Below are positions 1,430-20,710 of a DNA stretch of 44,677 bases, in pieces. Origin of the DNA: Alphaproteobacteria bacterium (GTDB lineage: Bacteria; Pseudomonadota; Alphaproteobacteria; SMXP01); assembly GCA_021774915.1 (NCBI GenBank), contig JAJFIO010000114.1, forward strand, positions 1 through 44,677, written 5' to 3'. The stretch's first letter is position 1. Each line of letters opens with the position of its first letter. The notes beneath the pieces are model-generated. The model saw nothing but the letters and a program-made list of their open reading frames with translations, was not told where the DNA came from and did not search any database. Both the position numbers and the translations under genes were made by a program.

Positions 1430-3514
1430 CTAAAATGAGTGAAAGCTCCCGCCTTGCTTTGCCAATCTTTCAATCAACGGCGCGGGGGTCCACCAGCGTC
1501 CTCCGTGCTGATCCCTTAAGGCGCAGATAATCTCAAATGTTTTCGCCAGTCCCACATGGTCGGCATAATGCATCGGGCCGCCACGATAGCGCGGGAAGCC
1601 GTAGCCATTAACATAGACGACATCGATATCGCCGGAGCGGTAGGCAATGCCTTCCTCCAAGATCTGCGCGCCGATATTCACCAGTGCAAAAATGCAGCGC
1701 TGGACGATTTCATCATCTGAGATAGATCGCCGCGCAATCCCCCGGGCTTCAGCTTCTTGCCCAATGATGGCGTCAACAGCCAAGTCAGGGATGGGTGTGC
1801 GGTTGCCCACCTCATAGCGGTAAAACCCGGCACCGGTTTTTTGCCCTTTGCGCCCCATTTCCACCAGACGGTCATGCACCGCAAAAGCGTTGGCATCATA
1901 AGCGGAAGGATCAAGCGCCTGGCGGATCATAGTGCCGATATCAATCCCCGCCATATCGGTCACTGCAATCGGGCCCATCGGCATGCCGAAATCATAAAGC
2001 GCCTGATCAATCTGCCCGGGCGAGGCCCCTTCGAGCAGCATCAACCCGGCCTCGCGGGCATAACCCTGCAACATGCGGTTGCCGATAAAACCAAAGCAGA
2101 CACCAGCCACCACGCCCACCTTGCCGATGCGTTTCGCCAAGGCGCTCACTGTGCTTAAAACATCCGGCGCGGTTTTGTCCCCGCGCACGATCTCAAGCAA
2201 TTTCATGACATTGGCCGGGCTAAAAAAATGCAGGCCTACCACATCTTCTGGGCGCTTTGTCGCCGCTGCAATCTCGTTGACATCAAGATAAGACGTATTG
2301 GTCGCTAATATGGCGCCAGGCTTCACCACGTCATCCAGAGTCTCAAAGACTTGTTTCTTAACCTCCATTTTCTCAAAGACAGCTTCAATTACAAGATCCA
2401 TGTCCGCCAGGTTGGCATATTCGGTCGTGCCCGAAATGCGGCCCATACATTCATCCGCTTGGGCTTGAGTAATCCGCCCGCGTTTGACGTTTCCCCCATA
2501 GTTATTGCCGACACGGGCAAGCCCGGCGTCGAGCGCATCTTGCGCAATCTCAAGGAGGGTGACATCAATCCCGGCAGAGCTGAACGCCATGGCAATGCCG
2601 CCGCCCATGGTTCCAGCGCCGATGATCCCGACTTTTTTGATGAGGCGTTTAGCCGTGTCTTTGGGCAGATTCGGGATATGACCACAGGCGCGCTCGGCAA
2701 AGAACAAATGCCGCTGCGCCGCTGATTGCGGCGACGCACGTCGTTCCAGCGTGATCTCCCGCTCCCGCGCCACGCCTTGGGGGTAAGGCAGCAGTGCCGC
2801 CTCAACCGCATCGACGCAAGCCTGCGGCGATTCAAAGCCGCGCTTGCTTTTAGCGAGGGACTTACGGGTGTCGTCAAAAAGGCCCGCCGGAATTGACTGA
2901 GGGTCGATCATGATTTCAGAAAGGCGGCGCACGCCCTCGCCTTGCGCAAGAATGTCACGGGCAAAATCCGCCGCTTGCCCCATCAGATCGTCACCAGACA
3001 GCCGGTCGAGTATGCCGAGGGATAATGCTGTGTCCGCGGTGATCTGCTTGCCTGTGGTGATGAGGTCAAGAGCCGCTTTCACGCCGACCAGACGCGGTAG
3101 GCGCTGGGTGCCCGTAGCACCGGGAATAATCCCTAAAGTCACTTCCGGAAACCCGAGTTTTGTTCCGGTGGCAGCGATCCGGTAATGGCACCCCAGCGCA
3201 ATCTCCAACCCACCGCCCAGCGTAAACCCGTGCAGCGCCGCAATCACCGGTTTGCCTGCCGCTTCCAACGTCTCTACCACTTGGCTCAAATGCGGCGGCT
3301 GAGGCCCTTTGTCGAATTCAGTAATGTCGGCGCCCGCCATGAAGGTGCGGCCGCGCGCGGCCAAAATAATCGCCTCCACCCCGTCATCTTCGAGCGCCTC
3401 AACCAGCCCTTCTAAAATACCTTGCCGCACGCCGTGGGAAATGGCGTTCACAGGGGGGTTATCGACCCACACATAAGCCAGCCCATCTTTTACTTCCATA
3501 GAAACCACAGACAT
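1430..3514 (-). CDS. Bifunctional enoyl-CoA hydratase / 3-hydroxyacyl-CoA dehydrogenase (FadJ/PimF-like)
   Basis: Crotonase N-terminus (NPPVNA, FMAGADI, GGGLE, PEVTLGIIPG), then GAGTMGGGIA Rossmann motif, NTSYL, HFFSPA and GFIGNR. Confidence 0.9.
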   Translation of the reverse strand: MSVVSMEVKDGLAYVWVDNPPVNAISHGVRQGILEGLVEALEDDGVEAIILAARGRTFMAGADITEFDKGPQPPHLSQVVETLEAAGKPVIAALHGFTLGGGLEIALGCHYRIAATGTKLGFPEVTLGIIPGATGTQRLPRLVGVKAALDLITTGKQITADTALSLGILDRLSGDDLMGQAADFARDILAQGEGVRRLSEIMIDPQSIPAGLFDDTRKSLAKSKRGFESPQACVDAVEAALLPYPQGVAREREITLERRASPQSAAQRHLFFAERACGHIPNLPKDTAKRLIKKVGIIGAGTMGGGIAMAFSSAGIDVTLLEIAQDALDAGLARVGNNYGGNVKRGRITQAQADECMGRISGTTEYANLADMDLVIEAVFEKMEVKKQVFETLDDVVKPGAILATNTSYLDVNEIAAATKRPEDVVGLHFFSPANVMKLLEIVRGDKTAPDVLSTVSALAKRIGKVGVVAGVCFGFIGNRMLQGYAREAGLMLLEGASPGQIDQALYDFGMPMGPIAVTDMAGIDIGTMIRQALDPSAYDANAFAVHDRLVEMGRKGQKTGAGFYRYEVGNRTPIPDLAVDAIIGQEAEARGIARRSISDDEIVQRCIFALVNIGAQILEEGIAYRSGDIDVVYVNGYGFPRYRGGPMHYADHVGLAKTFEIICALRDQHGGRWWTPAPLIERLAKQGGSFHSF

Positions 3515-3556
3515 GTTTCTTCCTTGTCCTTCTTGAAAGAGGATTCGAATAGAAAA

Positions 3557-4363
3557 TTACGCCTTAAATTTCGGCGGACGTTTTTCTTGGGCAGAGGCAA
3601 GACCTTCTTTCACGTCAGGCAATCTGAACCCGAGAAACTCCAACGCCAGGGACGTGTCGAAATTCGGGCCCGCCAGACGCAGCCAGTTATTGAGCGCATA
3701 TTTGGTGAAACTGAGCGCACTGGCGCTGCCCTCACTCAACTGAAGGGCTGTTTTGAGCGCCGTCTCATAAACTTCTTCGTCATCGACGCATAAAGAGACA
3801 AGCCCCATCTGCTCCGCCGCTTCACCCAAAATCGGCGTGTTGGTCATCAGATGATATTTGGCTTTGGCCAACCCGCACAGCAACGGCCAGATGATCACCG
3901 CATGATCCCCCGCCGCAACGCCAAGCTTGACATGACCGTCGAGAATGCGGGCGTTCTTTCCTGCAATGGAGATATCCGCCAACAAGGCCACCGCCAGACC
4001 GGCGCCGACCGCAACGCCGCGGATAGCCGACACCACCGGCTTGCTGCAATTGATGATATTGTATACGAGATCGCGGGCTTCCTTCCACACACGTAACAAA
4101 ACGGCGTCATGGTCGATCATATCTTCAATGAGGGAAAAATCCCCACCGGAAGAAAAATTGTCCCCCGCCCCGCGCACTAGAACCACTCTTACGGCCTCAT
4201 CGCCATCTATCTCAGGCCAGAGCGATGCCAGATCGGTGTGCATGCGGGCGTCCGCTGCGTTCAGTTTCCCGCTCTTTTCAAGGATGACCTCAAGAATGCT
4301 TGTCCGGGGCTCAGCAAAAGTGAGGCTGGGAAACCGCGCCTGATATTTTTCTAATGTGATCAT
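3557..4363 (-). CDS. Enoyl-CoA hydratase/isomerase (crotonase) family protein
   Basis: [36 protein letters not shown] and C-terminal EKRPPKF. Confidence 0.85.
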
Positions 4364-4373
4364 GGGTTAAGAG

Positions 4374-6404
4374 TTAGCCGCGCATGGCGTTCATGGTCAA
4401 GAGATCATAAGTGGCGACGGGCTCTCCCTCCTGGTTAGTCACCTCGACATCCCAGCGCACTTCGCCATAGCCAGCGCCGATCCGCTCGGTTTTTTGCTTG
4501 CAAGTGAGTCTAACCTGGATGCGATCGCCGGGATAGACTGGCTTAGAGAAGTTCAGATTCTCCAAGCCATAATTCGCCAGGACAGGCCCTGGCGCCGGAT
4601 CGACAAAAAGACCCGCCGCCGCGGATAGAATGAGATAACCATGGGCGACCCGGCCCTCGAAAAACGGATTGGCCTTCGCCGCTTCCTCATCCATATGGGC
4701 ATAAAATGTATCGCCGGTGAGAGCGGCAAATGCCTCCACGTCTTTCAAGTTGATTTCACGCGATTCTGTATGCAGCGTTGTGCCGATGGCAAGATCCTCA
4801 AAATGTTTGCGGAAAGGATGCTCGGCACCGGTGATTTCATGCGCCCCTTTCTGCCAGACATCCGTAATCTCAGCCAGCATCGCGGGTGATCCCTGAAGGG
4901 CCGTGCGCTGCATGTAATGCATGACGCTGCGGATGCCGCCCAGTTCCTCGCCGCCGCCGGCCCGACCCGGCCCGCCATGAACAAGATGCGGCAAGGGCGA
5001 GCCATGGCCTGTCGATTCCTTGGCGCAGTCGCGATTGATGAGAGCCAGACGGCCATGATAACAGGCGGTTCCATAAACCATCTCGCGGGCGATTTTAGCG
5101 TCATGAGTAAAAAGCGAGCCCACCAGACTTCCTTCGCCTTTGCGGGCCAGGTCAATTGCATCGTTTGTGCTCGAATAGGGGATCAGGGTCGTCACGGGAC
5201 CGAACGCTTCCACCCGGTGCACCGCTTCGTCCGATCCGCCCTCACGCATCCGCAATAAGGTTGGCGCGACAAAGGCCCCTTTACCCATATCCGCATCGAC
5301 AAGCGGAAACTCCTGTCCGCCGCCATAAACGATCTCGGCTTCTTGCCCCAGTTCGCGAACCCGCGCGTTGACATCATCGCGCTGCGCCAGACCCACAAGC
5401 GGGCCCATGGCGACGCCGTCAGATCGCGGATTGCCGATCACCACTTTTTCCAACCGCTCCGCCAGCGCGCCTTCAACCTCTTCAATGTAATTTGAGGGCA
5501 CGATAGCACGGCGAATGGCGGTGCATTTCTGTCCTGTTTTCACCGTCATCTCCGCCGCGATTTCTTTCACGAAGAGGTCAAATTCAGGCGAGCCAGGCGC
5601 GGCGTCCTTTCCCAGAATGGAGCAATTCAGCGAGTCCGTCTCTGCAACAAAGCGCGTGGCATTAGCCACAATCTCAGGATGGGTTGCCAATTTATGCCCC
5701 GTCGAGGCTGAGCCGGTAAACACCACCGCATCCTGACAGGAGACATGATCAAGCATATCGCCTAAGGACCCGCATACAAGCTGCACTGCCCCTTCAGGCA
5801 CAATCCCGGACTCGATGATCCGCCGAAAAACCCGCTCACTCAAATAAGCACTCGCTGTTGCCGGTTTAACCACCGCCGGAACGCCTGCCAGAAGCGACGT
5901 TGCCAGTTTTTCCAGCATTCCCCAGCAGGGAAAATTAAACGCGTTGATCTGGACCGCAACCCCTTCTCTGGGCACAAAAATATGCTGGCCGACAAAGGTT
6001 CCGTTTCGCGAGACAATTTCCGGCGGGCCATCGACGATATGATGGGCATCCGGCAACTCCCGCCGCCCCTTTGAGGCGTAGACGAATAATGTTGCAAATC
6101 CCCCATCAACATCTATCCACGTATCGCTTTTGGTGGCGCCCGTTGCCAGTGAGAGTTCATAAAATTCGTCTTTGAATTGACCCAAATGCTGCGCGATAGC
6201 TTTGAGCATCAGCCCCCGCTCATGAAATGTCAGATTGCGGAGGTTAGGCCCCCCAACCCCGCGGCTGTGATCCAGAATGCGCCGCATGTCGAGCCCATGA
6301 CTGCTACACGTCGCCACCACGTCCCCGGTCGAAGCGTCATGCAAATCGACAAAACCGCCTGACGCCGTCACCCACTCTCCATTGACATAATTTTGCAATT
6401 TCAC
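4374..6404 (-). CDS. paaZ: PaaZ, bifunctional oxepin-CoA hydrolase / aldehyde dehydrogenase
   Basis: ALDH domain (INAFNFPCWGMLEK, FTGSA, ETDSLN, GQKCTAIRR, EAFGPV, HGSPLP.LVHGGPGRAGGGEELGG) plus C-terminal MaoC domain (GDTFYAHMD, VAHGY). Start placed at GTG 6404 behind a GGGAG RBS. Confidence 0.95.
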   Translation of the reverse strand: MKLQNYVNGEWVTASGGFVDLHDASTGDVVATCSSHGLDMRRILDHSRGVGGPNLRNLTFHERGLMLKAIAQHLGQFKDEFYELSLATGATKSDTWIDVDGGFATLFVYASKGRRELPDAHHIVDGPPEIVSRNGTFVGQHIFVPREGVAVQINAFNFPCWGMLEKLATSLLAGVPAVVKPATASAYLSERVFRRIIESGIVPEGAVQLVCGSLGDMLDHVSCQDAVVFTGSASTGHKLATHPEIVANATRFVAETDSLNCSILGKDAAPGSPEFDLFVKEIAAEMTVKTGQKCTAIRRAIVPSNYIEEVEGALAERLEKVVIGNPRSDGVAMGPLVGLAQRDDVNARVRELGQEAEIVYGGGQEFPLVDADMGKGAFVAPTLLRMREGGSDEAVHRVEAFGPVTTLIPYSSTNDAIDLARKGEGSLVGSLFTHDAKIAREMVYGTACYHGRLALINRDCAKESTGHGSPLPHLVHGGPGRAGGGEELGGIRSVMHYMQRTALQGSPAMLAEITDVWQKGAHEITGAEHPFRKHFEDLAIGTTLHTESREINLKDVEAFAALTGDTFYAHMDEEAAKANPFFEGRVAHGYLILSAAAGLFVDPAPGPVLANYGLENLNFSKPVYPGDRIQVRLTCKQKTERIGAGYGEVRWDVEVTNQEGEPVATYDLLTMNAMRG

Positions 6405-6459
6405 GGTGAAACTCCCTCTTATACAGCATCCCAAAGACTCTGATCACAGAGCCGATTAT

Positions 6460-6499
6460 ATGATACAATATTGATAATATTGCAATATTATTGTATCAT
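6460..6499. promoter_or_regulatory. Putative PaaX operator, TGATAC-N26-GTATCA (site 1)
   Basis: ATGATACAATA...TATTGTATCAT inverted repeat in the divergent paaZ/paaX gap. It resembles the long-spaced TGATTC...GAATCA PaaX operator of E. coli and recurs at 9788-9825. Confidence 0.75.
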
Positions 6500-6518
6500 T
6501 TTAACGGCAAATGAAATT

Positions 6519-6547
6519 TTGACCCGCCTCGCGCCAGTGTATATCGT
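6519..6547 (+). promoter_or_regulatory. Putative sigma70 promoter of paaX
   Basis: TTGACC-N17-TATCGT about 75 nt upstream of the paaX ATG. Confidence 0.45.
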
Positions 6548-6621
6548 AAGCTCTTCCTCCCACCCCAACCCGCACGGCCTGCCCTTCTTGAGGTCATCAC
6601 GATAACGGATCCAGTTCATTT

Positions 6622-7560
6622 ATGTCTCAAGGTTTTCAAAAGACCATCGATACACTTGTGGCGAATTTTGCCAATCAACGCCCGATCCGCACCGGTTCTT
6701 TGATCGTCACCCTGTTTGGCGATGCCATCCTGCCTCGCGGAGGAACAGTCTCTCTCGCCAGCCTCGTCCGGGTTCTTGAAACCTTTGGTCTCAGCGAAAG
6801 ACTGATTCGCACGGCGGCTTTCCGCTCAACTAAAAACGGCTGGTTGACCGCCACAAAAATCGGACGGCAAAGCTATTACAGCTTGACCGAATCGGGGCGT
6901 CGACAATTCGATGAAGCCAGCAGACGGATTTATGGCGATGTTGCTGACACTTGGGATGGCGCGTGGACGCTGATCATTCTTCCCCAAGGACTGGAGGGCA
7001 AACGCGACACCATCCGCAAAGATTTGATCTGGCTCGGATTTGGACAGATTACAACCGGACTGCTGGGGCACCCCTCGATCGATTCAACACCCACAATCCG
7101 GCATCTGTCTGATCATGGCGTTCTTGATCAGGTTATCATCATGCACGCCAGATTAGATCGTGTGACGTCCAATCAATCGCAAAATGACATGGTGCGCTCA
7201 TGCTGGCCTTTAGGCGAAATCGAAGACCAGTACCGACATTTCCTGAAAACCTTCCGCCCGGTCTACAAAGCGGCGCGTTCTTCAAAAACGCTCCCACCCC
7301 ATCTTTGCCTCCTGGCTCGAACCATACTCATTCATGAATACAGAAAAATTATTCTTCACGACCCTCTGCTGCCCCGTGAACTTCTGCCCTCAAATTGGCT
7401 CGGCACTTCAGCCTACCAACTTTGCCGTAATCTCTATGGACTTATTTATCAGAATGCGGACAAATATCTCACGAGTCATCTGGAATCAGCCGAAGGTCCT
7501 TTGCAGAACCCTGGGCGTAATTTTGAAAAACGCTTTGGCGGCCTGCCTCACAGCATATAG
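6622..7560 (+). CDS. paaX: PaaX, phenylacetyl-CoA-responsive transcriptional repressor
   Basis: RTGSLIVTLFGDAILPRGG, GRQSYYSLT, WDGAW, L.WLGFG and LIHEYRKIILHDPLLPRELLP.NW.G motifs. Divergent from paaZ. Confidence 0.95.
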   Translation: MSQGFQKTIDTLVANFANQRPIRTGSLIVTLFGDAILPRGGTVSLASLVRVLETFGLSERLIRTAAFRSTKNGWLTATKIGRQSYYSLTESGRRQFDEASRRIYGDVADTWDGAWTLIILPQGLEGKRDTIRKDLIWLGFGQITTGLLGHPSIDSTPTIRHLSDHGVLDQVIIMHARLDRVTSNQSQNDMVRSCWPLGEIEDQYRHFLKTFRPVYKAARSSKTLPPHLCLLARTILIHEYRKIILHDPLLPRELLPSNWLGTSAYQLCRNLYGLIYQNADKYLTSHLESAEGPLQNPGRNFEKRFGGLPHSI

Positions 7561-7571
7561 AGAATTCATGC

Positions 7572-8630
7572 TCAGCTGTTCTGCGGTGCTTGGGTATATT
7601 GGTCCCCCGGAAGCATTTCGGGTTTGTGCTGCCCAAAATAGCCTTCCGTATGGATAAGCGCCGGTGACGCACCCAAAGCCTTGGTCTTAGCAACACAGGC
7701 ATCGACAAAGTCTGGACTGCCGGCAATGAAAACACTGTGGCGTGAGAGATCCGGCACAACTTCAGCTAATATGTCTGGAATGCGGCCTTGAAAACCATCA
7801 CTCTTTTCCCTCGTTAGGGTGTAGAGGAATTTAAAATTACGGTATTTTTCCTGCCAATATTCCATTAAACCCAGGTCGTAGACATCTGCGCGGGTACGGG
7901 CCGAAAAAAGGATGGTCACAGGATAAGCAAACCCCCGCCGCAGAGCAGCATCCGCTAAAGCCAGAAGTGGAGCCAGGCCTGAGCCCGCCGCGAGGCAAAG
8001 TATCGGCGATTCAACGCCAGGATCTCCGATAAACGTGCCGTAAGGTCCAGAGATCTGAACACGACTGCCTTCATGCAAATCATCATGAATCCAACGGCTG
8101 GTCACGCCATCATCGACACGGGCAATCTGCAAGACGATTTCACCATTTTGCCGGGGCGCATTTGCTATCGAATAAGACCGACTGGGTACGCCATGCTCTT
8201 CAGAACCCATCATGATATATTGACCCGGCCAAAATCTCATCGGCTCACCCACCGGTCTTAGTCTGAGTTCCATGATACTCTGTGTACGTGGCACGCGGTC
8301 AACGACAATATAGGAACTGTTTTCGAGGGGAGGAAAAAGTTTTGGTCTCGCGTCTTCAGTGCCCCATTCGATTTCAAGCACATCATCAAGTGGCTTGGCC
8401 ATGCACATCAGGCCAAAGCCTTTGGCGCGGTCCTCCTGGGACAATGCCATATCCAGCACAAAGCCTTGATCGAAGCGCCCTTGACGCACCTTGATTTTGC
8501 ACTCGCCGCACGCACCCGCCCGACAATTATTCGGCAGCGCGTAGCCCGCAGCTTCCAAAGCAGAGAGCACTGTATTTTCCGGCTGGCATTCAATCTCCTG
8601 ACCGGATGGAAACAGACGAATCTTCGACAT
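7572..8630 (-). CDS. Oxygenase reductase: N-terminal plant-type [2Fe-2S] ferredoxin plus FAD/NAD(P)-binding domains
   Basis: CRAGACGEC...LMC iron-sulfur motif, RSYSIA FAD motif, GPYG, AAGSGLAP, FIAGSP and HTEGYF. Start taken at ATG 8630 (GTG 8636 is an alternative). Confidence 0.9.
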   Translation of the reverse strand: MSKIRLFPSGQEIECQPENTVLSALEAAGYALPNNCRAGACGECKIKVRQGRFDQGFVLDMALSQEDRAKGFGLMCMAKPLDDVLEIEWGTEDARPKLFPPLENSSYIVVDRVPRTQSIMELRLRPVGEPMRFWPGQYIMMGSEEHGVPSRSYSIANAPRQNGEIVLQIARVDDGVTSRWIHDDLHEGSRVQISGPYGTFIGDPGVESPILCLAAGSGLAPLLALADAALRRGFAYPVTILFSARTRADVYDLGLMEYWQEKYRNFKFLYTLTREKSDGFQGRIPDILAEVVPDLSRHSVFIAGSPDFVDACVAKTKALGASPALIHTEGYFGQHKPEMLPGDQYTQAPQNS

Positions 8631-8699
8631 CAGCACCCTTTTTACGCATGAACGTCAGGGATCTTACCTGTCATACCTTTCCGATAAGATCAAGCTGAC

Positions 8700-9725
8700 C
8701 TAAAAAACCGGGATGATATCTTCCATCTCAACGTCGGAAATCTCTTTACCTGTAATACCGACTTCGGGGATGGCGGGAAACTCGGTCCCGTATTTGTCGA
8801 GCACACCTTTGAGGTTCAACATGGCATTGCGCCAGTTTTCTTTCTTCTGGTCATAGGTTGGGATTCCAAAGCCGGCTTTACGCGCCACTTCATCGCATGC
8901 GCGTTGATTGGCAATAAAGTCTTGCGGAATATCCCAGAATTCTTCCGGCGGCTCAAACAAAACACCTGACAGGAACAGATAGCCTGCGCGAATCTGCCTG
9001 GTGATGATCGCCTTGTCCTCATCTTTGAGATGCGGATAATCGCGTTCCATCAGCGACATGCAGATCGCCATGTGCCGCCCCTCATCCCGGCCGATATTGC
9101 GAAAAGCCTCCTGGAAAACAGGTTCCGTGCATCCCGCCGCCATCTGATGGAAAATGGTCGCCGCGGCAATCTCTCCCATCAGAAACGAACTGAACAAAAC
9201 AGCGAGACTGTATTTCGGAACGGCGTTCTTATAGCCCTCCCAATAGCGCGCGCCATTGTAGTAAAGCCATTTAACGTTTTTCTGTGCTCTCAGACCCAGC
9301 TCCGATTTGGGCTCATGGGTCAGGTAACTCGTCGATCCCAAAAGTTTTGTGATTGCCAAGCCGCACATCTGTTCATGGTTCTGCTCATCACGGGTTACGG
9401 AGAAAAAACATCTGCGCACCGGATCCTCTTCGTGGGCCTCATAGGTTTTGATCAGCGCAGCTGCAAAAACCGGCGGGGCAGAAGCATCAAATACAGACAA
9501 GATGGACCACCAATAGGCGATCGCTTCACGCTCTTCCCATGAATATTTCTCGACATCGAACGTATCCCAACTCAATTTCGTCGGATCCCAGTTTTCGCGC
9601 TGGGCGGCTTCCCATATCTCCTCCATCTTTTTGGTTTTGGATTCCCAACTCAGAGGATAGACATTGGGCTGCTGCGTTTCAGGAGGAAACTCAACCTTAT
9701 GGGCGATTCTGTCTTTGGGGCTCAC
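8700..9725 (-). CDS. Ferritin-like di-iron carboxylate protein, putative oxygenase/epoxidase subunit
   Basis: Two ExxH motifs about 100 aa apart (RDEQNHE, RDEGRH) with acidic ligand candidates before each (VFD, MGE), and an N-terminal WDP..L.W motif. Lies directly upstream of an oxygenase reductase. Start placed at GTG 9725 behind GAGGAG. Confidence 0.75.
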   Translation of the reverse strand: MSPKDRIAHKVEFPPETQQPNVYPLSWESKTKKMEEIWEAAQRENWDPTKLSWDTFDVEKYSWEEREAIAYWWSILSVFDASAPPVFAAALIKTYEAHEEDPVRRCFFSVTRDEQNHEQMCGLAITKLLGSTSYLTHEPKSELGLRAQKNVKWLYYNGARYWEGYKNAVPKYSLAVLFSSFLMGEIAAATIFHQMAAGCTEPVFQEAFRNIGRDEGRHMAICMSLMERDYPHLKDEDKAIITRQIRAGYLFLSGVLFEPPEEFWDIPQDFIANQRACDEVARKAGFGIPTYDQKKENWRNAMLNLKGVLDKYGTEFPAIPEVGITGKEISDVEMEDIIPVF

Positions 9726-9786
9726 GGCACGTTCTCCTCGTTTAATCTTTCCCTGGCGGGCCGGATGACCTTCGCTAGGGCGCAAT

Positions 9787-9826
9787 ATGATACATTATAT
9801 TTATAATATCAATATTTTTGTATCAC
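9787..9826. promoter_or_regulatory. Putative PaaX operator, TGATAC-N26-GTATCA (site 2)
   Basis: TGATAC at 9788-9793 and GTATCA at 9820-9825 with an AT-rich 26-nt spacer, the same geometry as 6461-6498. About 60 nt upstream of the di-iron gene. Confidence 0.75.
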
Positions 9827-10461
9827 TTAAGGGCGCTTTCTGGCTCTTTGGACTCAAATGCCAGAAAATGGCCATTTTTCAGCCCTCCTATGAAAAGATC
9901 TGCAGCCAGATCAGCAATCTGTTCGCTGGTCAGCCCCTTTGCGGGGTCAAACCATGTGTAAGTCCAGTTGATCATCCCTAAAAATAACATCGAAAACACA
10001 GTGAGATTGGCTCTTGAAGCGTGCCCACCCCCTAAAATATCGCCGATAAGGGTGGAGATGAGACTCACCACACCGTCCTCTTGAGCAATGATGAGATCCC
10101 GATCCTCTGCACCCAACGCCTCAAGCTCATTGAGCAAGACGATATGCTTGGCTTTCGCCTTCTCATAAAGCTGTAAAAAATCCCGCGTCAGATGACGGAA
10201 TTTATCTTCCGGGTCGCCCGACCCCCTAACGATGGCGCGCGCGGTCTGGCTCAGCGCCCTTGTATGTCCCTCCACCGAACAAAACAACATTTCCCGTTTT
10301 GATGAGAAATAATGGTAAAGCAAGGACTTTGATATTTTACACGATGCGGCTATTTCGGATATCGAAGTTTTATGAAACCCGTGTGCGGCGAAGAGCTCCG
10401 TAGAAGTATCGATGATATGCTGTCGTCGTTCGTCATAATCGGCAGATTGGGTCCGCGCCAT
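9823..10461 (-). CDS. TetR-family regulator, PaaR-like
   Basis: MART.S.DYD..R..I....ELFA..GF..TS..EIA..C.ISKSLLYHYF.SK helix-turn-helix and C-terminal GMINWTYTWF. Directly downstream of paaK. Confidence 0.85.
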   Translation of the reverse strand: MARTQSADYDERRQHIIDTSTELFAAHGFHKTSISEIAASCKISKSLLYHYFSSKREMLFCSVEGHTRALSQTARAIVRGSGDPEDKFRHLTRDFLQLYEKAKAKHIVLLNELEALGAEDRDLIIAQEDGVVSLISTLIGDILGGGHASRANLTVFSMLFLGMINWTYTWFDPAKGLTSEQIADLAADLFIGGLKNGHFLAFESKEPESALK

Positions 10462-10504
10462 GTCACATGACTCCCCTTCTCAATAACATCTGATGGGGCG
10501 CCGC

Positions 10505-11821
10505 TCAGGCGGGTCTGGTTCTTGCGTGACGCATATCAATCACACGGGCCGCTTTTCCTTCAGATCTTTCCAGTTTCATAGGCTCTTCCACATGAACCGT
10601 CGTACTCACCCCGACCATCACCTTGATTTGGTGCTTGAGATCCTGCGCGGTATTTAGGCGGTTTTGAGTATCTACCGCACCTTGTAAAGAGGAACATTCC
10701 ACGCGCACAGTGAGGGAGTCGAGCGCTCCTTCGCGGTGGATCTCCAGAACATAATGAGGCGACAAGCGATCATCTTTCAAGATCAGCTCTTCGATCTGTG
10801 TGGGAAAAACGTTCACGCCTCGGATGATCATCATATCATCACTGCGCCCTCTTATGCGACCCATGCGCCGCATAGAGCGCGCCGTGCCGGGAAGCAGACG
10901 CGTGAGATCCCGTGTTCGATAACGGATGACCGGCATTGCTTCTTTGGTAAGAGACGTAAAAACCAACTCGCCTTCCTCACCATCTTCCAACACGTCGCCT
11001 GTTTCGGGATTGATAATCTCGGGATAAAAATGATCTTCCCAGATATGAGGGCCGTCTTTTGTTTCTATGCATTCATTGGCGACGCCGGGTCCCATCACTT
11101 CCGACAGGCCATAAATATCGACAGCGTCGATATTAAAACGCCCCTCGATTTCCCGGCGCATTTCATCCGTCCATGGCTCCGCCCCGAAAATACCAACGCG
11201 CAGAGAAACTTCGCGCGAATCAAGCCCCTGGCGCATAAACTCATCGGCCAGAGCCAACATATAGGACGGTGTCACCATGATGATATCGGGTTTAAAATCC
11301 TGCATCAGTTGCACCTGGCGCTCCGTCGCCCCGCCCGACATCGGAACTACCGTGCAGCCCAATCGCTCCGCGCCGTAATGCGCCCCCAATCCGCCGGTAA
11401 AAAGCCCGTAGCCATAGGCGACATGAACCATATCGCCCGGCTTGCCACCCGCCGCCCGAATGGAGCGGGCGACGACATCAGCCCAGATATCAATATCGTT
11501 TTTGGTGTAACCGACAACCGTGGGCTTGCCGGTGGTGCCGCTTGATGCATGAATGCGCGCAACCTTTTCACGCGGCACGGCAAACATGCCGAAGGGATAA
11601 TTCGCCCGCAGATCGTCTTTTACCGTAAACGGAAAGAGACTAAGATCTTTCAAAGACTTCAGATCGCCGGGATGCACGCCTTTGTCTTCAAAAGCCTTGC
11701 GGTAAAAAGGAACATTGTCATACGTGTGCACAAGCGTCTTTTTCATCCGCTTAAGCTGAACCGCAGCAATCTCATCCCGAGACGCCTTTTCCAGATGATC
11801 TAATCTCGAGCAATCCGGCAT
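10505..11821 (-). CDS. paaK: Phenylacetate-CoA ligase
   Basis: RIHASSGTTGKPTVVGYT, YGYGLFTGGLGAHYGAE, IFGAEPW, DIYGLSEVMGPGV, RYRTRDLT and GRSDDM. Start placed at ATG 11821 behind GGAGG. Confidence 0.95.
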   Translation of the reverse strand: MPDCSRLDHLEKASRDEIAAVQLKRMKKTLVHTYDNVPFYRKAFEDKGVHPGDLKSLKDLSLFPFTVKDDLRANYPFGMFAVPREKVARIHASSGTTGKPTVVGYTKNDIDIWADVVARSIRAAGGKPGDMVHVAYGYGLFTGGLGAHYGAERLGCTVVPMSGGATERQVQLMQDFKPDIIMVTPSYMLALADEFMRQGLDSREVSLRVGIFGAEPWTDEMRREIEGRFNIDAVDIYGLSEVMGPGVANECIETKDGPHIWEDHFYPEIINPETGDVLEDGEEGELVFTSLTKEAMPVIRYRTRDLTRLLPGTARSMRRMGRIRGRSDDMMIIRGVNVFPTQIEELILKDDRLSPHYVLEIHREGALDSLTVRVECSSLQGAVDTQNRLNTAQDLKHQIKVMVGVSTTVHVEEPMKLERSEGKAARVIDMRHARTRPA

Positions 11822-11858
11822 TGGCCTAAAGCCTCCCTCCCCGTCTATCAATTAATGG

Positions 11859-13064
11859 TCACACCCGTTCGAAGATGGCGGCGATGCCCTGCCCCACGCC
11901 AATACACATGGTGCAGAGAGCATAGCGGCCCTGGCGGCGCTTCAGTTCAAGACAGGCGGTCAGCGCCAGGCGCGCGCCGCTCATACCCAGAGGGTGGCCA
12001 AGAGCAATGGCGCCGCCATGAGGATTGACGTGCGGTGCATCATCGGCCAACCCGAGCGCGCGCATCACTGCCAAGGATTGCGCCGCAAAAGCTTCATTCA
12101 GTTCAATGACGTTCATATCGTTAATATTCAGACCGGCTTGGCCCAGGAGTTTCTTCGTCGCGGGCACAGGGCCGACTCCCATGATGCGCGGGGGCACACC
12201 GTGTACGGCACTGCCGACAAAGCGCGCACGCACGTTGAGATCATATTCCTTGACCGCTTTTTCCGAGGCGACGATCATCGCGCATGCGCCGTCATTGACG
12301 CCCGATGCATTGCCTGCGGTAATAGTCCCGCCGGCCTTAAACGGGGTCGGCAGAGAGCTTAGCTTTTCAAGTTTGGTTTCAGGTCGCGGATGCTCATCGC
12401 GCGTGATGTCCTTTTCTTGTTGGCGGGAAACGCGCACGCGCACGGGAATGATCTCGTCATCGAATATGCCTGCTTCTTGAGCCGCCCCCGCCTTTTGCTG
12501 CGAGCGCCAAGCGAACTGATCCTGGTCTTCTCGTGAAATCTGAAAATCTGTCGCCACATTTTCCGCCGTCTCAGGCATAGAATCCACACCGTAGTGCTTT
12601 TCCATCAGCTTATTCACGAAGCGCCAGCCGATCGTGGTGTCATAGATTTCCGCCTTGCGCGAAAACGCGCCCTCCGCCTTGCCCATCACAAAAGGCGCAC
12701 GGCTCATGCTCTCCACACCGCCGGCAATCACCAGATCCGCCTCGCCGCATTTCACCAGACGCGCCGCCTGAGCGATGGCATCGAGTCCCGATCCGCACAA
12801 ACGGTTCACGGTTGCGCCCGGCACCACTTCCGGCAGGCCGCTGAGCAGAACCGCCATGCGCGCCACATTGCGATTGTCCTCGCCCGCCTGATTGGCGCAG
12901 CCCAGAATCACATCATCAAGACGCGCCCAATCCACTTGTGAAGTGCGCTCCATCAGTGCGCGCAAAGGCACCGCCGCCAAGTCATCAGGGCGAACAGAAG
13001 ACAGCGCGCCGCCATACCGCCCAATCGGGGTGCGCACACCATCACATATAAAAGCATCATTCAT
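11859..13064 (-). CDS. paaJ: 3-oxoadipyl-CoA / 3-oxo-5,6-dehydrosuberyl-CoA thiolase (PaaJ/PcaF)
   Basis: RTPIGRYGG, NQAGEDNRNVARMA, NRLCGSG, NEAFA, GHPLG and CIGVGQG. Confidence 0.9.
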   Translation of the reverse strand: MNDAFICDGVRTPIGRYGGALSSVRPDDLAAVPLRALMERTSQVDWARLDDVILGCANQAGEDNRNVARMAVLLSGLPEVVPGATVNRLCGSGLDAIAQAARLVKCGEADLVIAGGVESMSRAPFVMGKAEGAFSRKAEIYDTTIGWRFVNKLMEKHYGVDSMPETAENVATDFQISREDQDQFAWRSQQKAGAAQEAGIFDDEIIPVRVRVSRQQEKDITRDEHPRPETKLEKLSSLPTPFKAGGTITAGNASGVNDGACAMIVASEKAVKEYDLNVRARFVGSAVHGVPPRIMGVGPVPATKKLLGQAGLNINDMNVIELNEAFAAQSLAVMRALGLADDAPHVNPHGGAIALGHPLGMSGARLALTACLELKRRQGRYALCTMCIGVGQGIAAIFERV

Positions 13065-13081: not shown

Positions 13082-13873
13082 TTAACTGCCGGTATAATGC
13101 GGCGTTCTCTTGCCTAAAAATGCCGCCACGCCTTCGGCATAATCGTCCGAATTACCCGCCTGGCGCTGAAGCTCTTCCTCAACATCAAGCTGCGCCTCCA
13201 GCGTATTTTCCAGCGACAGCGCCAGCGCTTTTTTGGTGAGGCCGTACCCTAAGGTCGGTTGACCGGCCATTTCCAATACCAGTTTTTCCGCCTCACCCAT
13301 CAAATCCTCATCAGGGTACGCTTTCCAGATCATCCCCCAGTCGGCCGCCTGCACCCCCGTGATCGGCGTTGCCAACATCGCGATGGCCTTGGCCCGCGGC
13401 AGACCAATGAGCCGGGGCAGGAAAAACGTGCCGCCGCTGTCGGGGATCAGCCCCAGCTTTGAAAAGGCCTGAATAAAACGCGCCCCTTCCGCCGCCAGAA
13501 CGATATCGCACGCCAGCGCGAGATTGGCGCCCGCCCCGGCTGCCGTGCCGTTCACCGCGCAGAGGGTTGGTTTAGGCAAAGAGACGAGTTTAAGAATAAG
13601 GGGGTTATAGCCTTGCCTCAGCGATGCGCCGAGATCCGTTTTCGCGCCTTGGGCTTTGACCGCGCGATCATTGAGGTCTTGACCCGAACAAAAGCCCCGC
13701 CCCGCCCCCGTCAGCAGCACCGCGCGAATATCATCGCGCGTCGCCGCCTCATCCAGCGCCGCGCCCAGCTCCTCCAGCATCTGCCGGGTGACCGCGTTCA
13801 GCCGCTCTGGGCGATTGAGCGTCAGTTTAGCCACCCCCGCCTCAACGGTGAAAAGAATGGTTTCAAAGGTCAT
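13082..13873 (-). CDS. paaG: 1,2-epoxyphenylacetyl-CoA isomerase (PaaG)
   Basis: Crotonase with GRGFCSGQDL, YNPLI, NG.AAGAGANLALACD, IQAFSKLGLIPDSGGT and DYAEGV.AF..KR. First gene of paaG-J-K. Confidence 0.9.
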   Translation of the reverse strand: MTFETILFTVEAGVAKLTLNRPERLNAVTRQMLEELGAALDEAATRDDIRAVLLTGAGRGFCSGQDLNDRAVKAQGAKTDLGASLRQGYNPLILKLVSLPKPTLCAVNGTAAGAGANLALACDIVLAAEGARFIQAFSKLGLIPDSGGTFFLPRLIGLPRAKAIAMLATPITGVQAADWGMIWKAYPDEDLMGEAEKLVLEMAGQPTLGYGLTKKALALSLENTLEAQLDVEEELQRQAGNSDDYAEGVAAFLGKRTPHYTGS

Positions 13874-20206: not shown

Positions 20207-20209
20207 GCC

Positions 20210-20710
20210 ATGACGAGCGTCACATCACTTGCCGAACTGGACCTTAAAACAGTCGAGGAGTTTCTTTTTCATGAAGCGCGCCTGCTAGATGAAAAAAAAT
20301 GGCAAAAATGGGATGGGCTCTTTACCACAGACGGGACATATTGGATGCCCGCCTCCGTCGATCAACCGGACCCTTTGAATTATGTCTCCCTTATTTATGA
20401 GGACAAGCTGTTAAGGGCCGTGCGGATAGAACGGTTCGACAACGAGAACGCCCACTCGCTGCAACCAATCCCACGCAGCGTCCACCTCGTCTCTAATGTT
20501 ATGATTGATGCCTATGATGCGGTAAGCGGCACCTGCACTGTGAACTCAAGGTTCGTGGTTTTTGAATACCGCCGCGATGAACAGCGCATCTATGGCGGCG
20601 CTTATATTCATGACCTCATCTTTGACGGAACGGATTTCAAAATAAAACAGAAACGCGTCAACTTAGTGAATTGCGAAAGCGCGCTGGATAACATCAACGT
20701 TTATCTTTAA
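20210..20710 (+). CDS. iadE: Ring-hydroxylating oxygenase beta subunit (IadE-like)
   Basis: FL..EARLLD....W..LF..DG.YWMP, R..HLVSNV and KIKQKRVNLVN. Confidence 0.7.
   Translation: MTSVTSLAELDLKTVEEFLFHEARLLDEKKWQKWDGLFTTDGTYWMPASVDQPDPLNYVSLIYEDKLLRAVRIERFDNENAHSLQPIPRSVHLVSNVMIDAYDAVSGTCTVNSRFVVFEYRRDEQRIYGGAYIHDLIFDGTDFKIKQKRVNLVNCESALDNINVYL

What the first reader, a model, noticed from the sequence alone, without database searches (positions are those of the whole stretch)
7572..9826. Candidate new two-component aryl-CoA epoxidase replacing PaaABCDE in a paa cluster
Seen: the cluster has paaK, paaG, paaZ, paaJ, paaX and beta-oxidation genes but no paaA/B/C/D/E. Embedded in it are a ~341-aa ferritin-like protein (D...EQNH...E...EGRH di-iron pattern) and a [2Fe-2S]-FAD-NAD reductase, with a copy of the paaZ/paaX operator directly upstream. 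Established: PaaG and PaaZ act only on the ring-1,2-epoxide/oxepin normally made by PaaABCE. BoxB/BoxA shows that a single di-iron subunit plus a reductase can epoxidise an aryl-CoA. PaaE carries its [2Fe-2S] domain at the C-terminus, whereas this reductase has it at the N-terminus. Inference: the pair is a non-orthologous minimal phenylacetyl-CoA (or substituted aryl-CoA) epoxidase. I do not recognise the di-iron protein as PaaA, PaaC, BoxB, AurF or an RNR R2.
Basis: partly seen in the sequence, partly recalled or inferred. Interest (0 to 1): 0.9.

Follow-up and report, generated by a model that had tools for sequence, protein, structure and literature searches.

The report
Candidate alternative phenylacetyl-CoA ring epoxidase
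A conserved, unnamed two-gene iron oxygenase sits in the phenylacetate breakdown genes of a bacterium that lacks the usual ring-attacking enzyme, and it is the best candidate for the "missing" enzyme that a 2015 study of such bacteria asked for.

Summary
Window 8700-9725(-) encodes a 341-aa ferritin-like protein with a full D/E...ExxH...E...ExxH di-iron ligand set. Window 7572-8636(-) encodes a Fer2-FAD-NAD reductase. Both lie among PaaK, PaaJ, PaaG, PaaZ and PaaX genes, behind a second copy of a TGATAC-N26-GTATCA box. The own genome (92% complete) has no PaaA, PaaB, PaaC, PF05138 or BoxB.

The pair is a small, very conserved, unannotated family. The reductase follows in 76 of 76 evaluable loci. 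Of 50 pair-holding genomes, 43 carry PaaK and 41 PaaG above cut-off. Its promoter carries a PaaX-type box in many lineages and the Burkholderia PaaR-operator core in Rhodocyclaceae, so it belongs to the phenylacetyl-CoA regulon.

Twenty-two of 50 genomes have PaaK, PaaG and the pair but no PaaA. Published Sedimenticola strains grow aerobically on phenylacetate without paaABCD.

Against simple replacement: 21 of 50 genomes also have PaaA, and in Nitrincola and Marinospirillum the pair sits directly beside paaABCDE.

The fold is closest to R2lox and RNR R2, not to PaaA or BoxB.

Best reading (about 0.55): a non-orthologous two-component phenylacetyl-CoA 1,2-epoxidase. No biochemistry exists yet.

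The parts
8700..9725 (-). Di-iron (ferritin-like, R2lox/R2-like fold) oxygenase component, 341 aa. Proposed catalytic subunit.
   Evidence: ORF and translation. Ligand columns conserved. Pfam AurF scores only 22.9 bits, below its 29.6 cut-off, and no NCBIfam family matches. AF2 model has pLDDT 90.5. Best folds are R2lox at Z 19.1 and R2 at Z 18.8.
7572..8636 (-). NAD(P)H-dependent reductase with domain order [2Fe-2S] ferredoxin - FAD - NAD. The ATG at 8630 is the likelier start. Proposed electron donor.
   Evidence: Pfam Fer2, FAD_binding_6 and NAD_binding_1. Best NCBIfam matches are BenC at 145 bits, MmoC at 116 and PaaE at 112, all far below their cut-offs. It lies directly downstream of the di-iron gene in 76 of 80 loci; the other 4 are cut by contig ends.
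9788..9825 (.). PaaX-type box TGATAC-N26-GTATCA directly upstream of the di-iron gene. It overlaps the stop codon of the TetR gene.
   Evidence: 2 matches in the window, 0 expected. A sigma-70-like -35/-10 on the - strand (9812..9784) lies inside it (a consensus match only).
6461..6498 (.). Second copy of the same box, in the paaZ/paaX intergenic region.
   Evidence: A promoter-like site at 6471-6499(+) lies inside it.
6622..7560 (+). PaaX repressor gene, convergent with the reductase gene.
   Evidence: TIGR02277 at 288 bits, cut-off 265. Pfam PaaX, PaaX_M and PaaX_C.
4374..6434 (-). PaaZ, bifunctional oxepin-CoA hydrolase and aldehyde dehydrogenase.
   Evidence: TIGR02278 at 1001 bits.
9823..10461 (-). 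TetR-family regulator (possible PaaR-like), last gene of the paaG-paaJ-paaK-tetR run.
   Evidence: Pfam TetR_N and TetR_C_24.
10505..11851 (-). PaaK, phenylacetate-CoA ligase.
   Evidence: TIGR02155 at 738 bits.
11859..13064 (-). PaaJ/PcaF 3-oxoadipyl-CoA thiolase.
   Evidence: NF006551 at 709 bits and TIGR02430 at 687 bits.
13082..13873 (-). PaaG, 1,2-epoxyphenylacetyl-CoA isomerase.
   Evidence: TIGR02280 at 356 bits, cut-off 345.
1430..4363 (-). Lower-pathway genes: a crotonase (3557-4363) and a FadJ-like enoyl-CoA hydratase/3-hydroxyacyl-CoA dehydrogenase (1430-3514).

Best explanation
The two genes encode a two-component, oxygen-dependent phenylacetyl-CoA ring 1,2-epoxidase. It is not orthologous to PaaABC(D)E.

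Proposed mechanism:
1. The reductase takes electrons from NAD(P)H through FAD to its N-terminal [2Fe-2S] cluster and passes them to the di-iron centre of the 341-aa protein.
2. The reduced di-iron centre activates O2 and epoxidises the ring of phenylacetyl-CoA made by PaaK, or by the indolepyruvate/phenylpyruvate oxidoreductase encoded further along the window.
3. PaaG isomerises the epoxide to oxepin-CoA.
4. PaaZ opens and oxidises the ring.
5. PaaJ and the hydratase/dehydrogenase genes finish the breakdown.
6. Transcription is held off by PaaX at the box in front of the gene and released by phenylacetyl-CoA.

What is shown: gene content, ligand motif, fold class, conserved pairing, operator copies, genome-level co-occurrence, and absence of PaaA, PaaB, PaaC and BoxB in this genome.

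What is inferred: the substrate, the epoxide product, electron transfer between the two proteins, and repression by PaaX.

Where PaaABCDE is also present, I infer that the pair is an isoenzyme. It may suit low oxygen or a different metal supply. Nothing here tests that.
For: 1. In this genome PaaK, PaaG, PaaZ, PaaJ and PaaX are present, but PaaA, PaaB, PaaC, PF05138 and BoxB are not found. The pair lies in the middle of the cluster.

2. The pair is a fixed unit. The reductase follows in 76 of 80 loci, and the other 4 are cut by contig ends.

3. Among 50 pair-holding genomes:
- PaaG is above cut-off in 41.
- PaaK is above cut-off in 43, and at E<=1e-60 in 46.
- PaaA is above cut-off in only 21.
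- 22 of 50 have PaaK and PaaG above cut-off but no PaaA above cut-off.

4. In an even sample of 400 other genomes of the same class, the family was found in 12 of 68 genomes with a PaaG-like gene (E<=1e-95) and in 3 of the 332 without one. Of 46 genomes with both PaaK and PaaG, 30 have PaaA (2 of them also have the family), 7 have the family only, and 9 have neither.

5. Regulatory links:
- A PaaX-type box lies within 350 nt upstream of the di-iron gene in 28 of 77 loci. These include Azospirillum, Nitrincola, Burkholderiaceae and Pseudomaricurvus.
- The published E. coli PaaX site is TGATTC-N27-GAATCA (review PMC9493321, passages read).
- In 10 of 10 aligned Rhodocyclaceae loci the promoter region holds TGACC(G/A)ACCG(G/T)TC.
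- That shares the core of the B. cenocepacia PaaR operator ACCGACCGGTCGGT (PMC2770484, passages read).
- In G010, G032 and G038 the 12-mer GACCGACCGGTC occurs exactly twice per genome, once upstream of the paaG operon and once upstream of the di-iron gene (with coordinates).

6. A complete 3.3-Mb genome, G098, has no PaaA match. It carries a three-gene island of PaaG, PaaK and a di-iron homologue (51% identity) between housekeeping genes.

7. Published physiology (PMC4453571, abstract and passages read). Sedimenticola selenatireducens CUZ and Dechloromarinus NSS grow aerobically on phenylacetate. They have paa genes including a 'paaE' but no paaABCD. [quoted passage not shown] A Sedimenticola thiotaurini locus (L080) has PaaK, PaaJ, PaaH, crotonases, PaaZ, the di-iron gene, the reductase and PaaX in one cluster, and its genome has no PaaA match.

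8. The di-iron protein is the most conserved protein of the cluster: 76-82% identity across classes, against 49-71% for PaaG, PaaJ and PaaK.
Against: 1. PaaA is above cut-off in 21 of 50 pair-holding genomes.

2. In Nitrincola the gene order is paaK, di-iron, reductase, paaA, paaB, paaC, paaD, paaE on one strand. Marinospirillum (L077) and L057 are similar. Two enzymes for one step in one gene array argue for a non-redundant role.

3. Only 14 of 80 loci have paaK, paaG or paaJ within the fetched flanks.

4. The fold is not specifically like the known aryl-CoA epoxidases. R2lox scores Z 19.1, an aldehyde-deformylating-oxygenase-like protein 18.9 and RNR R2 18.8, against PaaC 15.3, a PaaA-like archaeal protein 15.9 and BoxB 13.6. 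hhalign against a PaaA gives probability 0.2.

5. Four Bdellovibrionota genomes hold the pair at 77-82% identity without any PaaK. In one of them a 4-hydroxyphenylpyruvate-dioxygenase-like gene sits directly upstream.

6. In Azospirillum the neighbours include fumarylacetoacetate-hydrolase-like and homogentisate-dioxygenase-like genes.

7. In strain CUZ, proteomics pointed to a homogentisate-type cluster with three other oxygenases during growth on phenylacetate with oxygen (PMC4453571).

8. Nine of 16 sampled PaaK+ PaaG+ PaaA- genomes lack the family, so it is not the only way around PaaA.

9. Many genomes are metagenome bins of unknown completeness, and about 30 of the 80 loci are Azospirillum, so the counts are not independent.

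10. No enzyme assay, mutant or expression datum exists.
Confidence: 0.55

Rival explanations
1. The pair belongs to the phenylacetyl-CoA regulon but does another oxygen-dependent job. Examples are oxygenation of a substituted phenylacetyl-CoA (hydroxy- or other ring-substituted), or salvage or detoxification of a pathway side product. In PaaA-less genomes the main epoxidation would then be done by something else.
For: The pair coexists with PaaA in 21 of 50 genomes and lies next to paaABCDE in L074, L077, L079 and L057. A second, weakly PaaA-like ferritin family (67-120 bits to TIGR02156, about 240-280 aa) sits beside PaaG-like genes in several PaaA-negative genomes and could be the real substitute there.
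Against: The own genome has no PaaA-like or PF05138 match at all. G098 has only PaaG, PaaK and the di-iron gene together and no PaaA-like match at E<=1e-20. No other oxygenase is conserved with these clusters. PaaG and PaaZ would have no substrate.
Confidence: 0.22
2. The pair is a ring hydroxylase. It turns phenylacetate or phenylacetyl-CoA into 2-hydroxyphenylacetate or homogentisate, which feeds a homogentisate-type ring-cleavage route as in fungi.
For: There is an HPPD-like gene directly upstream of the pair in a Bacteriovoracaceae locus. Azospirillum has FAA-hydrolase-like, HgmA-like and FAD-monooxygenase neighbours. The CUZ proteomics highlighted a homogentisate-pathway cluster on phenylacetate with oxygen (PMC4453571). 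The own genome has homologues of these genes on other contigs.
Against: This does not explain the tight link to PaaG, PaaZ and PaaK or the PaaG-PaaK-di-iron island. In the own genome the homogentisate-like genes are on other contigs, and HmgA scores only 68 bits against a cut-off of 511. The Azospirillum neighbours are one lineage and are transcribed separately. The HPPD neighbour was seen in 1 of 80 loci.
Confidence: 0.12
3. The di-iron protein is an R2lox-, desaturase- or aldehyde-deformylating-type enzyme acting on an aliphatic acyl-CoA or lipid. Or the reductase really serves the Rieske dioxygenase at 18893-20710. In either case the link to paa would be loose.
For: The best structural matches are R2lox and an ADO-like protein. 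The reductase's best NCBIfam match is BenC, the reductase of a Rieske dioxygenase. A Rieske alpha/beta pair without its own reductase lies 9 kb away.
Against: The reductase is fixed next to the di-iron gene in 76 of 76 evaluable loci, and the Rieske genes were found in none of the 80 loci. PaaX- and PaaR-type operators precede the pair. Structural Z scores differ by only about 3-5 among all di-iron families, with 8-14% identity, so they carry no functional information.
Confidence: 0.06

Closest known systems
PaaABC(D)E phenylacetyl-CoA 1,2-epoxidase (E. coli, P. putida)
   Same: The proposed substrate, product, pathway position and regulator are the same (PaaX or PaaR with phenylacetyl-CoA as inducer). 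Both use a di-iron carboxylate four-helix-bundle catalytic protein fed by an NAD(P)H-dependent FAD/[2Fe-2S] reductase.
   Different: There is no sequence membership: no PF05138 or TIGR02156 match, and hhalign probability is 0.2. It has one oxygenase polypeptide instead of PaaA, PaaB and PaaC (plus PaaD). The ferredoxin domain of the reductase is N-terminal rather than C-terminal. The fold is nearer R2lox/R2 than PaaA/PaaC.
BoxAB benzoyl-CoA 2,3-epoxidase
   Same: It is a precedent for a single di-iron subunit plus one reductase epoxidising an aryl-CoA.
   Different: BoxB has about 470 residues, and TIGR03225 gives no match. BoxB ranks 26th structurally at Z 13.6. The BoxA model scores only 27.8 bits against a cut-off of 459 on the reductase. 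That BoxA uses [4Fe-4S] clusters is recalled, not tested here.
R2-like ligand-binding oxidase (R2lox) and class I ribonucleotide reductase R2
   Same: This is the closest fold: 4hr0 at Z 19.1, rmsd 3.4 over 266 residues, and 2uw2 at Z 18.8. It is also the closest profile match to solved structures, with 7qbp at E 1.7e-4. The ligand pattern D/E, ExxH, E, ExxH is the same.
   Different: Identity is only 11-13%. A dedicated reductase gene is attached. The genes sit in a paa regulon. A conserved Cys stands four residues after the first His ligand, where E. coli R2 has its radical tyrosine (that numbering is recalled).
AurF / CmlI arylamine N-oxygenases (PF11583)
   Same: This is the only Pfam family that touches the protein. 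It is a di-iron ferritin-like oxygenase acting on aromatic substrates.
   Different: The score is 22.9 bits, below the 29.6 cut-off. Structural Z is 14.6 and 13.7. The genomic context is unrelated.
Reductases of bacterial multicomponent monooxygenases and class IB Rieske dioxygenases (MmoC, BenC)
   Same: The domain order is the same: plant-type [2Fe-2S], FAD, NAD. These are the best NCBIfam matches.
   Different: All scores are far below the equivalog cut-offs (145 against 430, 116 against 500). The partner is a different oxygenase family.

Membership tests
PaaA/PaaC family (PF05138; TIGR02156, TIGR02158) | Sequence match to the family models | tested here: not met
   No Pfam or NCBIfam hit of these models on the 341-aa protein. 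hhalign of the family alignment A1 against a Nitrincola PaaA gives probability 0.2.
PaaABC(D)E epoxidase complex | Oxygenase built from PaaA with PaaB and PaaC; reductase PaaE with a C-terminal [2Fe-2S] domain | tested here: not met
   No PaaB or PaaC genes in the own genome. The reductase has Fer2 at residues 10-82, and PaaE model positions 281-351 map to its N-terminal end. It scores 112 bits against a cut-off of 421.
PaaABC(D)E epoxidase complex | Converts phenylacetyl-CoA to ring-1,2-epoxyphenylacetyl-CoA | not testable with these tools
   This needs an enzyme assay or complementation.
BoxAB benzoyl-CoA epoxidase | Match to BoxB (TIGR03225) and BoxA (TIGR03224) | tested here: not met
   No BoxB hit on the protein or in the genome. 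BoxA scores 27.8 bits against a cut-off of 459 on the reductase.
AurF family (PF11583) | Score above Pfam's gathering threshold | tested here: not met
   22.9 bits against a cut-off of 29.6. Some relatives carry a precomputed PF11583 label.
Ferritin-like di-iron carboxylate superfamily | Four-helix bundle with D/E, ExxH, E, ExxH metal ligands | tested here: met
   D79, E114/H117, E185 and E215/H218 lie on helices 63-80, 101-129, 174-198 and 202-232 of the model. Z is 13-19 to many di-iron enzymes.
RNR R2 / R2lox | Close fold and sequence relation; radical tyrosine (R2) or bound fatty-acid ligand and Tyr-Val cross-link (R2lox) | tested here: inconclusive
   These are the best fold matches (Z about 19, 11-13% identity) and give a weak profile match (E 1.7e-4). 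Foldseek E is only about 1e-3. Cys121 stands at the +4 position after H117. The comparison with R2 Tyr122 rests on recalled numbering. A bound ligand cannot be tested.
Fer2-FAD-NAD oxygenase reductases (BenC/MmoC type) | N-terminal plant-type [2Fe-2S], then FAD- and NAD-binding domains | tested here: met
   Pfam domain order. C-x4-C-x2-C...C, RxYS and GxGxxP motifs are visible in the translation. That these motifs mark such reductases is recalled.
PaaX regulon | Operator of two 6-bp inverted half-sites about 26-27 nt apart in the promoter (E. coli: TGATTC-N27-GAATCA) | tested here: met
   TGATAC-N26-GTATCA at 9788-9825 and 6461-6498, 2 against 0 expected. Related boxes occur upstream of the gene in 28 of 77 loci. 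The consensus comes from PMC9493321. Binding itself was not tested.

The most novel reading that the evidence does not exclude
A third, independently evolved class of aryl-CoA ring epoxidase, built on an R2lox/R2-like scaffold with a BMM-type reductase. It would carry aerobic phenylacetate catabolism in many microaerophilic and denitrifying Proteobacteria, and in some Campylobacterota and Bdellovibrionota. Examples are Azospirillum, Magnetospirillum, Azoarcus and its relatives, Sedimenticola and Aliarcobacter. It would act either alone or beside PaaABCDE as a condition-specific isoenzyme, for example for low oxygen or a different metal cofactor.
Probability: 0.5. Interest if true: 0.85.

Novelty: new variant of a known kind. 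Interest (0 to 1): 0.75.

Why it matters
Ring epoxidation is the key chemical step of the phenylacetate hybrid pathway. That pathway funnels phenylalanine, styrene, phenylethylamine and many pollutants into central metabolism.

PaaA and PaaC are used as the genomic markers of the pathway. A 2026 survey kept only ligases co-located with PaaABCDE (PMC13186573, passages read). A second epoxidase family would mean that pathway potential is under-counted.

It would also answer the open question from Sedimenticola and Dechloromarinus of how phenylacetate is oxidised aerobically without paaABCD.

It would add an enzymologically distinct di-iron catalyst for arene epoxidation of CoA esters. Its coexistence with PaaABCDE in one operon offers a natural system for asking why cells keep two such enzymes.

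Tried and rejected
Sequence search of the protein against solved structures found nothing meaningful: the best hit was a designed helix bundle at E 0.08.

The ESM Atlas gave only 'ferritin-like domain-containing protein' clusters.

Complex prediction of the di-iron protein with the reductase, using my own alignments A1 and A3, returned 'no answer' with score 0.01. This is not evidence either way.

The look-up of sequencing runs listed four DNA holders from one biofilm-metagenome study and no RNA holder. Expression therefore could not be examined, and read laying was not used.

My first ORF picker chose antisense ORFs in high-GC loci and found the di-iron gene in only 40 loci. I replaced it with a GC3-weighted picker, which found it in 80 of 80. 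Gene maps from it are approximate.

Literature searches found no paper that names this family or an alternative phenylacetyl-CoA epoxidase. That holds only for the library searched.

The GapMind paper (PMC9007349, passages) reports an alternative oxepin-CoA hydrolase, not an epoxidase. The Aromatoleum systems paper (PMC9765128, passages) does not mention the pair.

I considered and set aside the idea that the neighbouring TetR gene, rather than PaaX, controls the pair in the window. The box in front of the pair is the PaaX-type one, and no PaaR-type ACCGACCGGTC core was looked for in the window.

The supplementary table of locus tags and the proteomics tables of PMC4453571 could show whether the gene next to 'paaE' in strain CUZ is this di-iron gene and whether it is induced. 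Supplements were closed, so that link is an inference from S. thiotaurini (L080).


Full report
WHAT IS THERE

On the minus strand the window carries a run of phenylacetate (paa) genes.
- PaaG, 13082-13873: TIGR02280 at 356 bits, cut-off 345.
- PaaJ/PcaF thiolase, 11859-13064.
- PaaK, 10505-11851: 738 bits.
- A TetR regulator, 9823-10461.
- The 341-aa ferritin-like protein, 8700-9725.
- A Fer2-FAD-NAD reductase, 7572-8636.
- After the convergent PaaX gene (6622-7560, plus strand): PaaZ at 4374-6434 (1001 bits), a crotonase and a FadJ-like hydratase/dehydrogenase.

The ferritin-like protein has no NCBIfam match and only a sub-threshold Pfam AurF match: 22.9 bits against a cut-off of 29.6. In an alignment of 28 relatives, D113 and D214 are invariant, and E114, H117, E185 and H218 are nearly so.

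The reductase has its [2Fe-2S] domain at the N-terminus. The PaaE model matches it only in permuted order.

The own genome is 3.04 Mb in 324 contigs and 92% complete. It gives no match to PaaA, PaaB, PaaC, Pfam PaaA_PaaC or BoxB.

The box TGATAC-N26-GTATCA occurs twice in the window, in the paaZ/paaX intergenic region and directly before the di-iron gene. The expected number was 0.

WHAT KIND OF PROTEIN IT IS

The family is small and isolated.
- In 1.84 billion cluster representatives, only 239 score E<=1e-3 and 59 score E<=1e-30. Many of these are fragments.
- Within the main clade it is very conserved. More than 120 proteins of about 341 aa show 76-94% identity, from Alpha-, Beta- and Gammaproteobacteria, Campylobacterota and Bdellovibrionota.
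- Where the sources name it at all, they call it rubrerythrin, aminobenzoate oxygenase, ferritin-like or hypothetical.

An AlphaFold2 model built with alignment A1 is confident, with pLDDT 90.5.
- Foldseek finds only RNR R2 and R2lox chains, at E about 1e-3 and TM about 0.5.
- An all-against-representatives alignment ranks R2lox at Z 19.1, an aldehyde-deformylating-oxygenase-like protein at 18.9 and human R2 at 18.8.
- These stand ahead of an archaeal PaaA-like protein (15.9), methane monooxygenase (15.6), PaaC (15.3), AurF (14.6) and BoxB (13.6). All have 6-14% identity.
- A profile of A1 hits R2lox at E 1.7e-4 in the PDB sequences.
- hhalign against a PaaA gives probability 0.2.

It is therefore a separate lineage of the di-iron carboxylate superfamily, nearest the R2/R2lox branch. 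It is not a member of the PaaA, BoxB or AurF families.

THE PAIR IS A UNIT AND BELONGS TO THE PHENYLACETYL-CoA REGULON

Of 247 relatives found in one-genome-per-species contigs, 80 loci were kept.

Pairing. The reductase lies directly downstream in 76 loci. In the other four (L040, L061, L063, L071) the contig ends within 600 nt.

Neighbours, by lineage (with gene maps):
- A PaaX-like gene (about 40% identity) is adjacent in 37 of 80 loci, mostly Azospirillum.
- paaK, paaG or paaJ lie within the flanks in 14 of 80. Two of those are duplicate contigs of one bin.
- In Magnetospirillum-type loci and in Aliarcobacter, a branched-chain-type ABC transporter precedes the pair on the same strand.
- In Rhodocyclaceae the neighbours are housekeeping genes: DUF520, argG, argF, argD.

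Regulatory signals tie even these unlinked copies to the paa genes.
- A relaxed PaaX-type box lies within 350 nt upstream of the di-iron gene in 28 of 77 loci. There are 30 hits in 32.8 kb of upstream windows.
- Elsewhere in the 1.37 Mb of loci scanned there are 63 hits. By my own count of the listing, 27 of those are a second box in front of the adjacent paaX gene.
- The E. coli PaaX site is given as TGATTC-N27-GAATCA in a review (PMC9493321, passages).
- In ten aligned Rhodocyclaceae loci, the region about 110 nt upstream holds an invariant TGACC(G/A)ACCG(G/T)TC.
- The validated PaaR operator of Burkholderia cenocepacia is ACCGACCGGTCGGT (PMC2770484, passages).
- In G010, G032 and G038 the 12-mer GACCGACCGGTC occurs exactly twice per genome, upstream of the paaG-led operon and upstream of the di-iron gene. 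G011 has it only before paaG. G040 has six copies, including both of these places (positions compared). The reversed-pattern control gives 2-13 hits per genome. The argument therefore rests on where the sites lie, not on their rarity.

GENOME-LEVEL CO-OCCURRENCE

I could search the genomes of 50 of the 80 loci.
- PaaG is above cut-off in 41.
- PaaK is above cut-off in 43, and at E<=1e-60 in 46. The four genomes without PaaK are Bdellovibrionota.
- Bifunctional PaaZ is above cut-off in 15.
- PaaA is above cut-off in 21. Seven more have weak hits, and 22 have none at E<=1e-3.
- 22 of 50 have PaaK and PaaG above cut-off without PaaA above cut-off. Three of those (G002, G003, G050) have a weak 67-69-bit PaaA-like hit.

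I also searched an even sample of 400 other genomes of the window's class.
- 68 have a PaaG-like gene at E<=1e-95.
- The di-iron family is in 12 of those 68 and in 3 of the remaining 332.
- Two of the 12 are about 80% identical to the window protein, and both have PaaA.
- The other ten are 47-55% identical, and none has PaaA above cut-off. Six of these ten do have a weak PaaA-like hit of 77-93 bits.
- Among the 46 sampled genomes with both PaaK and PaaG, 30 have PaaA, 7 have only the di-iron family and 9 have neither.

Relatives are not independent, and many genomes are bins, so I give no test statistic.

THE CASES THAT BEAR MOST ON FUNCTION

For an epoxidase role:
- In the own genome and eight or nine other genomes, the pair lies among paaK, paaJ, paaG and paaZ and no PaaA is found. 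These are G001, G014, G023, G025, G029, G033, G035, G049 and G050.
- The complete genome G098 has an island of just PaaG, PaaK and a 51%-identical di-iron gene, lying between DNA ligase/DUF1326 and a nucleoside hydrolase. The enzyme missing between a phenylacetate-CoA ligase and the epoxide isomerase is the epoxidase.
- Carlstrom and colleagues (PMC4453571; abstract and passages read) showed that Sedimenticola selenatireducens CUZ and Dechloromarinus NSS grow aerobically on phenylacetate. These strains express paa genes and have a 'paaE', but no paaABCD. The authors asked for an unidentified oxygenase-epoxidase.
- In S. thiotaurini (L080) the only PaaE-like gene of the paa cluster is this reductase, and the di-iron gene lies beside it.
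- That the 'paaE' of CUZ is the same gene is my inference. The locus-tag table is in a closed supplement.

Against a simple replacement:
- In Nitrincola the order is paaK, di-iron, reductase, paaA, paaB, paaC, paaD, paaE on one strand, with the PaaX-type box between paaK and the di-iron gene.
- Marinospirillum is alike.
- In L057 the adjacent PaaA reads in two pieces. This may be decay or an assembly error.
- Azoarcus-type genomes keep both systems under the same operator.
- A Bacteriovoracaceae locus has an HPPD-like gene directly before the pair.
- Azospirillum has homogentisate-type neighbours.
- The CUZ proteome pointed to a homogentisate-type cluster on phenylacetate with oxygen.

MOST LIKELY MECHANISM

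I commit to a two-component phenylacetyl-CoA 1,2-epoxidase, with confidence about 0.55.

NAD(P)H reduces FAD and then the [2Fe-2S] cluster of the reductase. The cluster reduces the di-iron site, which activates O2 and epoxidises the ring. PaaG, PaaZ and the beta-oxidation-like enzymes follow. PaaX (or PaaR in Rhodocyclaceae) represses the genes until phenylacetyl-CoA appears.

The pattern of genomes with PaaABCDE only, with both systems, or with the pair only is what in-place non-orthologous displacement or isoenzyme retention would give. Many hosts are microaerophiles or denitrifiers, which suggests a low-oxygen isoenzyme. That is speculation.

The main rival (about 0.22) is a different oxygenation within the same regulon. 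A hydroxylase feeding homogentisate cleavage (about 0.12) and an unrelated lipid or acyl role (about 0.06) fit less of the evidence.

COMPARISON AND NOVELTY

If the proposal is right, the pair works like PaaABCE and BoxAB. It is a member of neither: the family models, subunit make-up and reductase architecture were tested and not met.

It is a member of the ferritin-like di-iron superfamily, and its reductase has the BMM/BenC-type architecture.

No paper in the searched library names it.

I rate it a new variant of a known kind, namely a third type of di-iron aryl-CoA epoxidase, pending biochemistry.

LIMITS

- There is no catalytic, genetic or expression evidence.
- The genome counts rest on model cut-offs, on bins of unknown completeness and on related genomes.
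- Gene maps of the loci come from my own simple ORF picker.

Noticed in passing
G154:C104:14369-15103, G179:C17:7751-8491, G333:C247:6458-7198, G292:C119:127737-128471; also G004:C53:249129-249869 and L002/L003/L005 just upstream of paaX: A second unnamed ferritin-like family of about 240-280 aa scores only 67-120 bits to the PaaA model (cut-off 280). It sits directly beside PaaG-like genes in genomes without canonical PaaA. It could be yet another epoxidase variant or a partner subunit.
   Followed up: partly
L081 (G098:C1) 7436-10675: A three-gene island of PaaG, PaaK and a di-iron homologue (51% identity) lies in a complete 3.3-Mb genome, flanked by DNA ligase/DUF1326 and a nucleoside hydrolase. 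No reductase and no other paa gene were found in the 20 kb fetched.
   Followed up: partly
L091 (Nitrincola) 4638-12745; also L074, L077: paaK, the di-iron gene, the reductase, paaA, paaB, paaC, paaD and paaE lie on one strand. Both oxygenase systems are in one array, with a PaaX-type box before the di-iron gene.
   Followed up: yes
L057 13211-14147: The PaaA next to the pair reads in two overlapping pieces (model positions 1-150 and 147-289). This is a frameshift that may be gene decay or an assembly error in this bin.
   Followed up: no
L058 8973-9998: A 4-hydroxyphenylpyruvate-dioxygenase-like gene ends 3 nt before the di-iron gene in a Bacteriovoracaceae genome that has no PaaK. It was seen in 1 of 80 loci.
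   Followed up: partly
L012 9232-9717 and 17 other Azospirillum loci: A 161-aa BLUF (blue-light FAD sensor) gene lies between paaX and the di-iron gene in many Azospirillum species.
   Followed up: no
L026-L075 (Rhodocyclaceae), about 70-90 nt upstream of the di-iron gene: A second conserved palindrome, TTGA(T/C)C-N2-3-(G/A)ATCAA, follows the PaaR-type box.
   Followed up: no
window 18893-20710: Rieske dioxygenase alpha and beta subunits (BenA/HcaE-like, far below equivalog cut-offs) with no reductase or ferredoxin gene of their own nearby. A putative cyclase gene follows at 20738-21532.
   Followed up: no
window 21690-25330 and 34661-36406: Indolepyruvate-type 2-oxoacid:ferredoxin oxidoreductase alpha and beta genes and a quinohemoprotein amine dehydrogenase alpha subunit. 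Both could feed phenylacetyl-CoA or phenylacetaldehyde into the pathway, so the window looks like an aromatic-amine and aromatic-amino-acid catabolic island.
   Followed up: no
window 29451-31760: A 769-aa ORF joins an N-terminal FAD_binding_3 domain to an Old-Yellow-Enzyme-type FMN oxidoreductase domain. My ORF call may be over-long.
   Followed up: no
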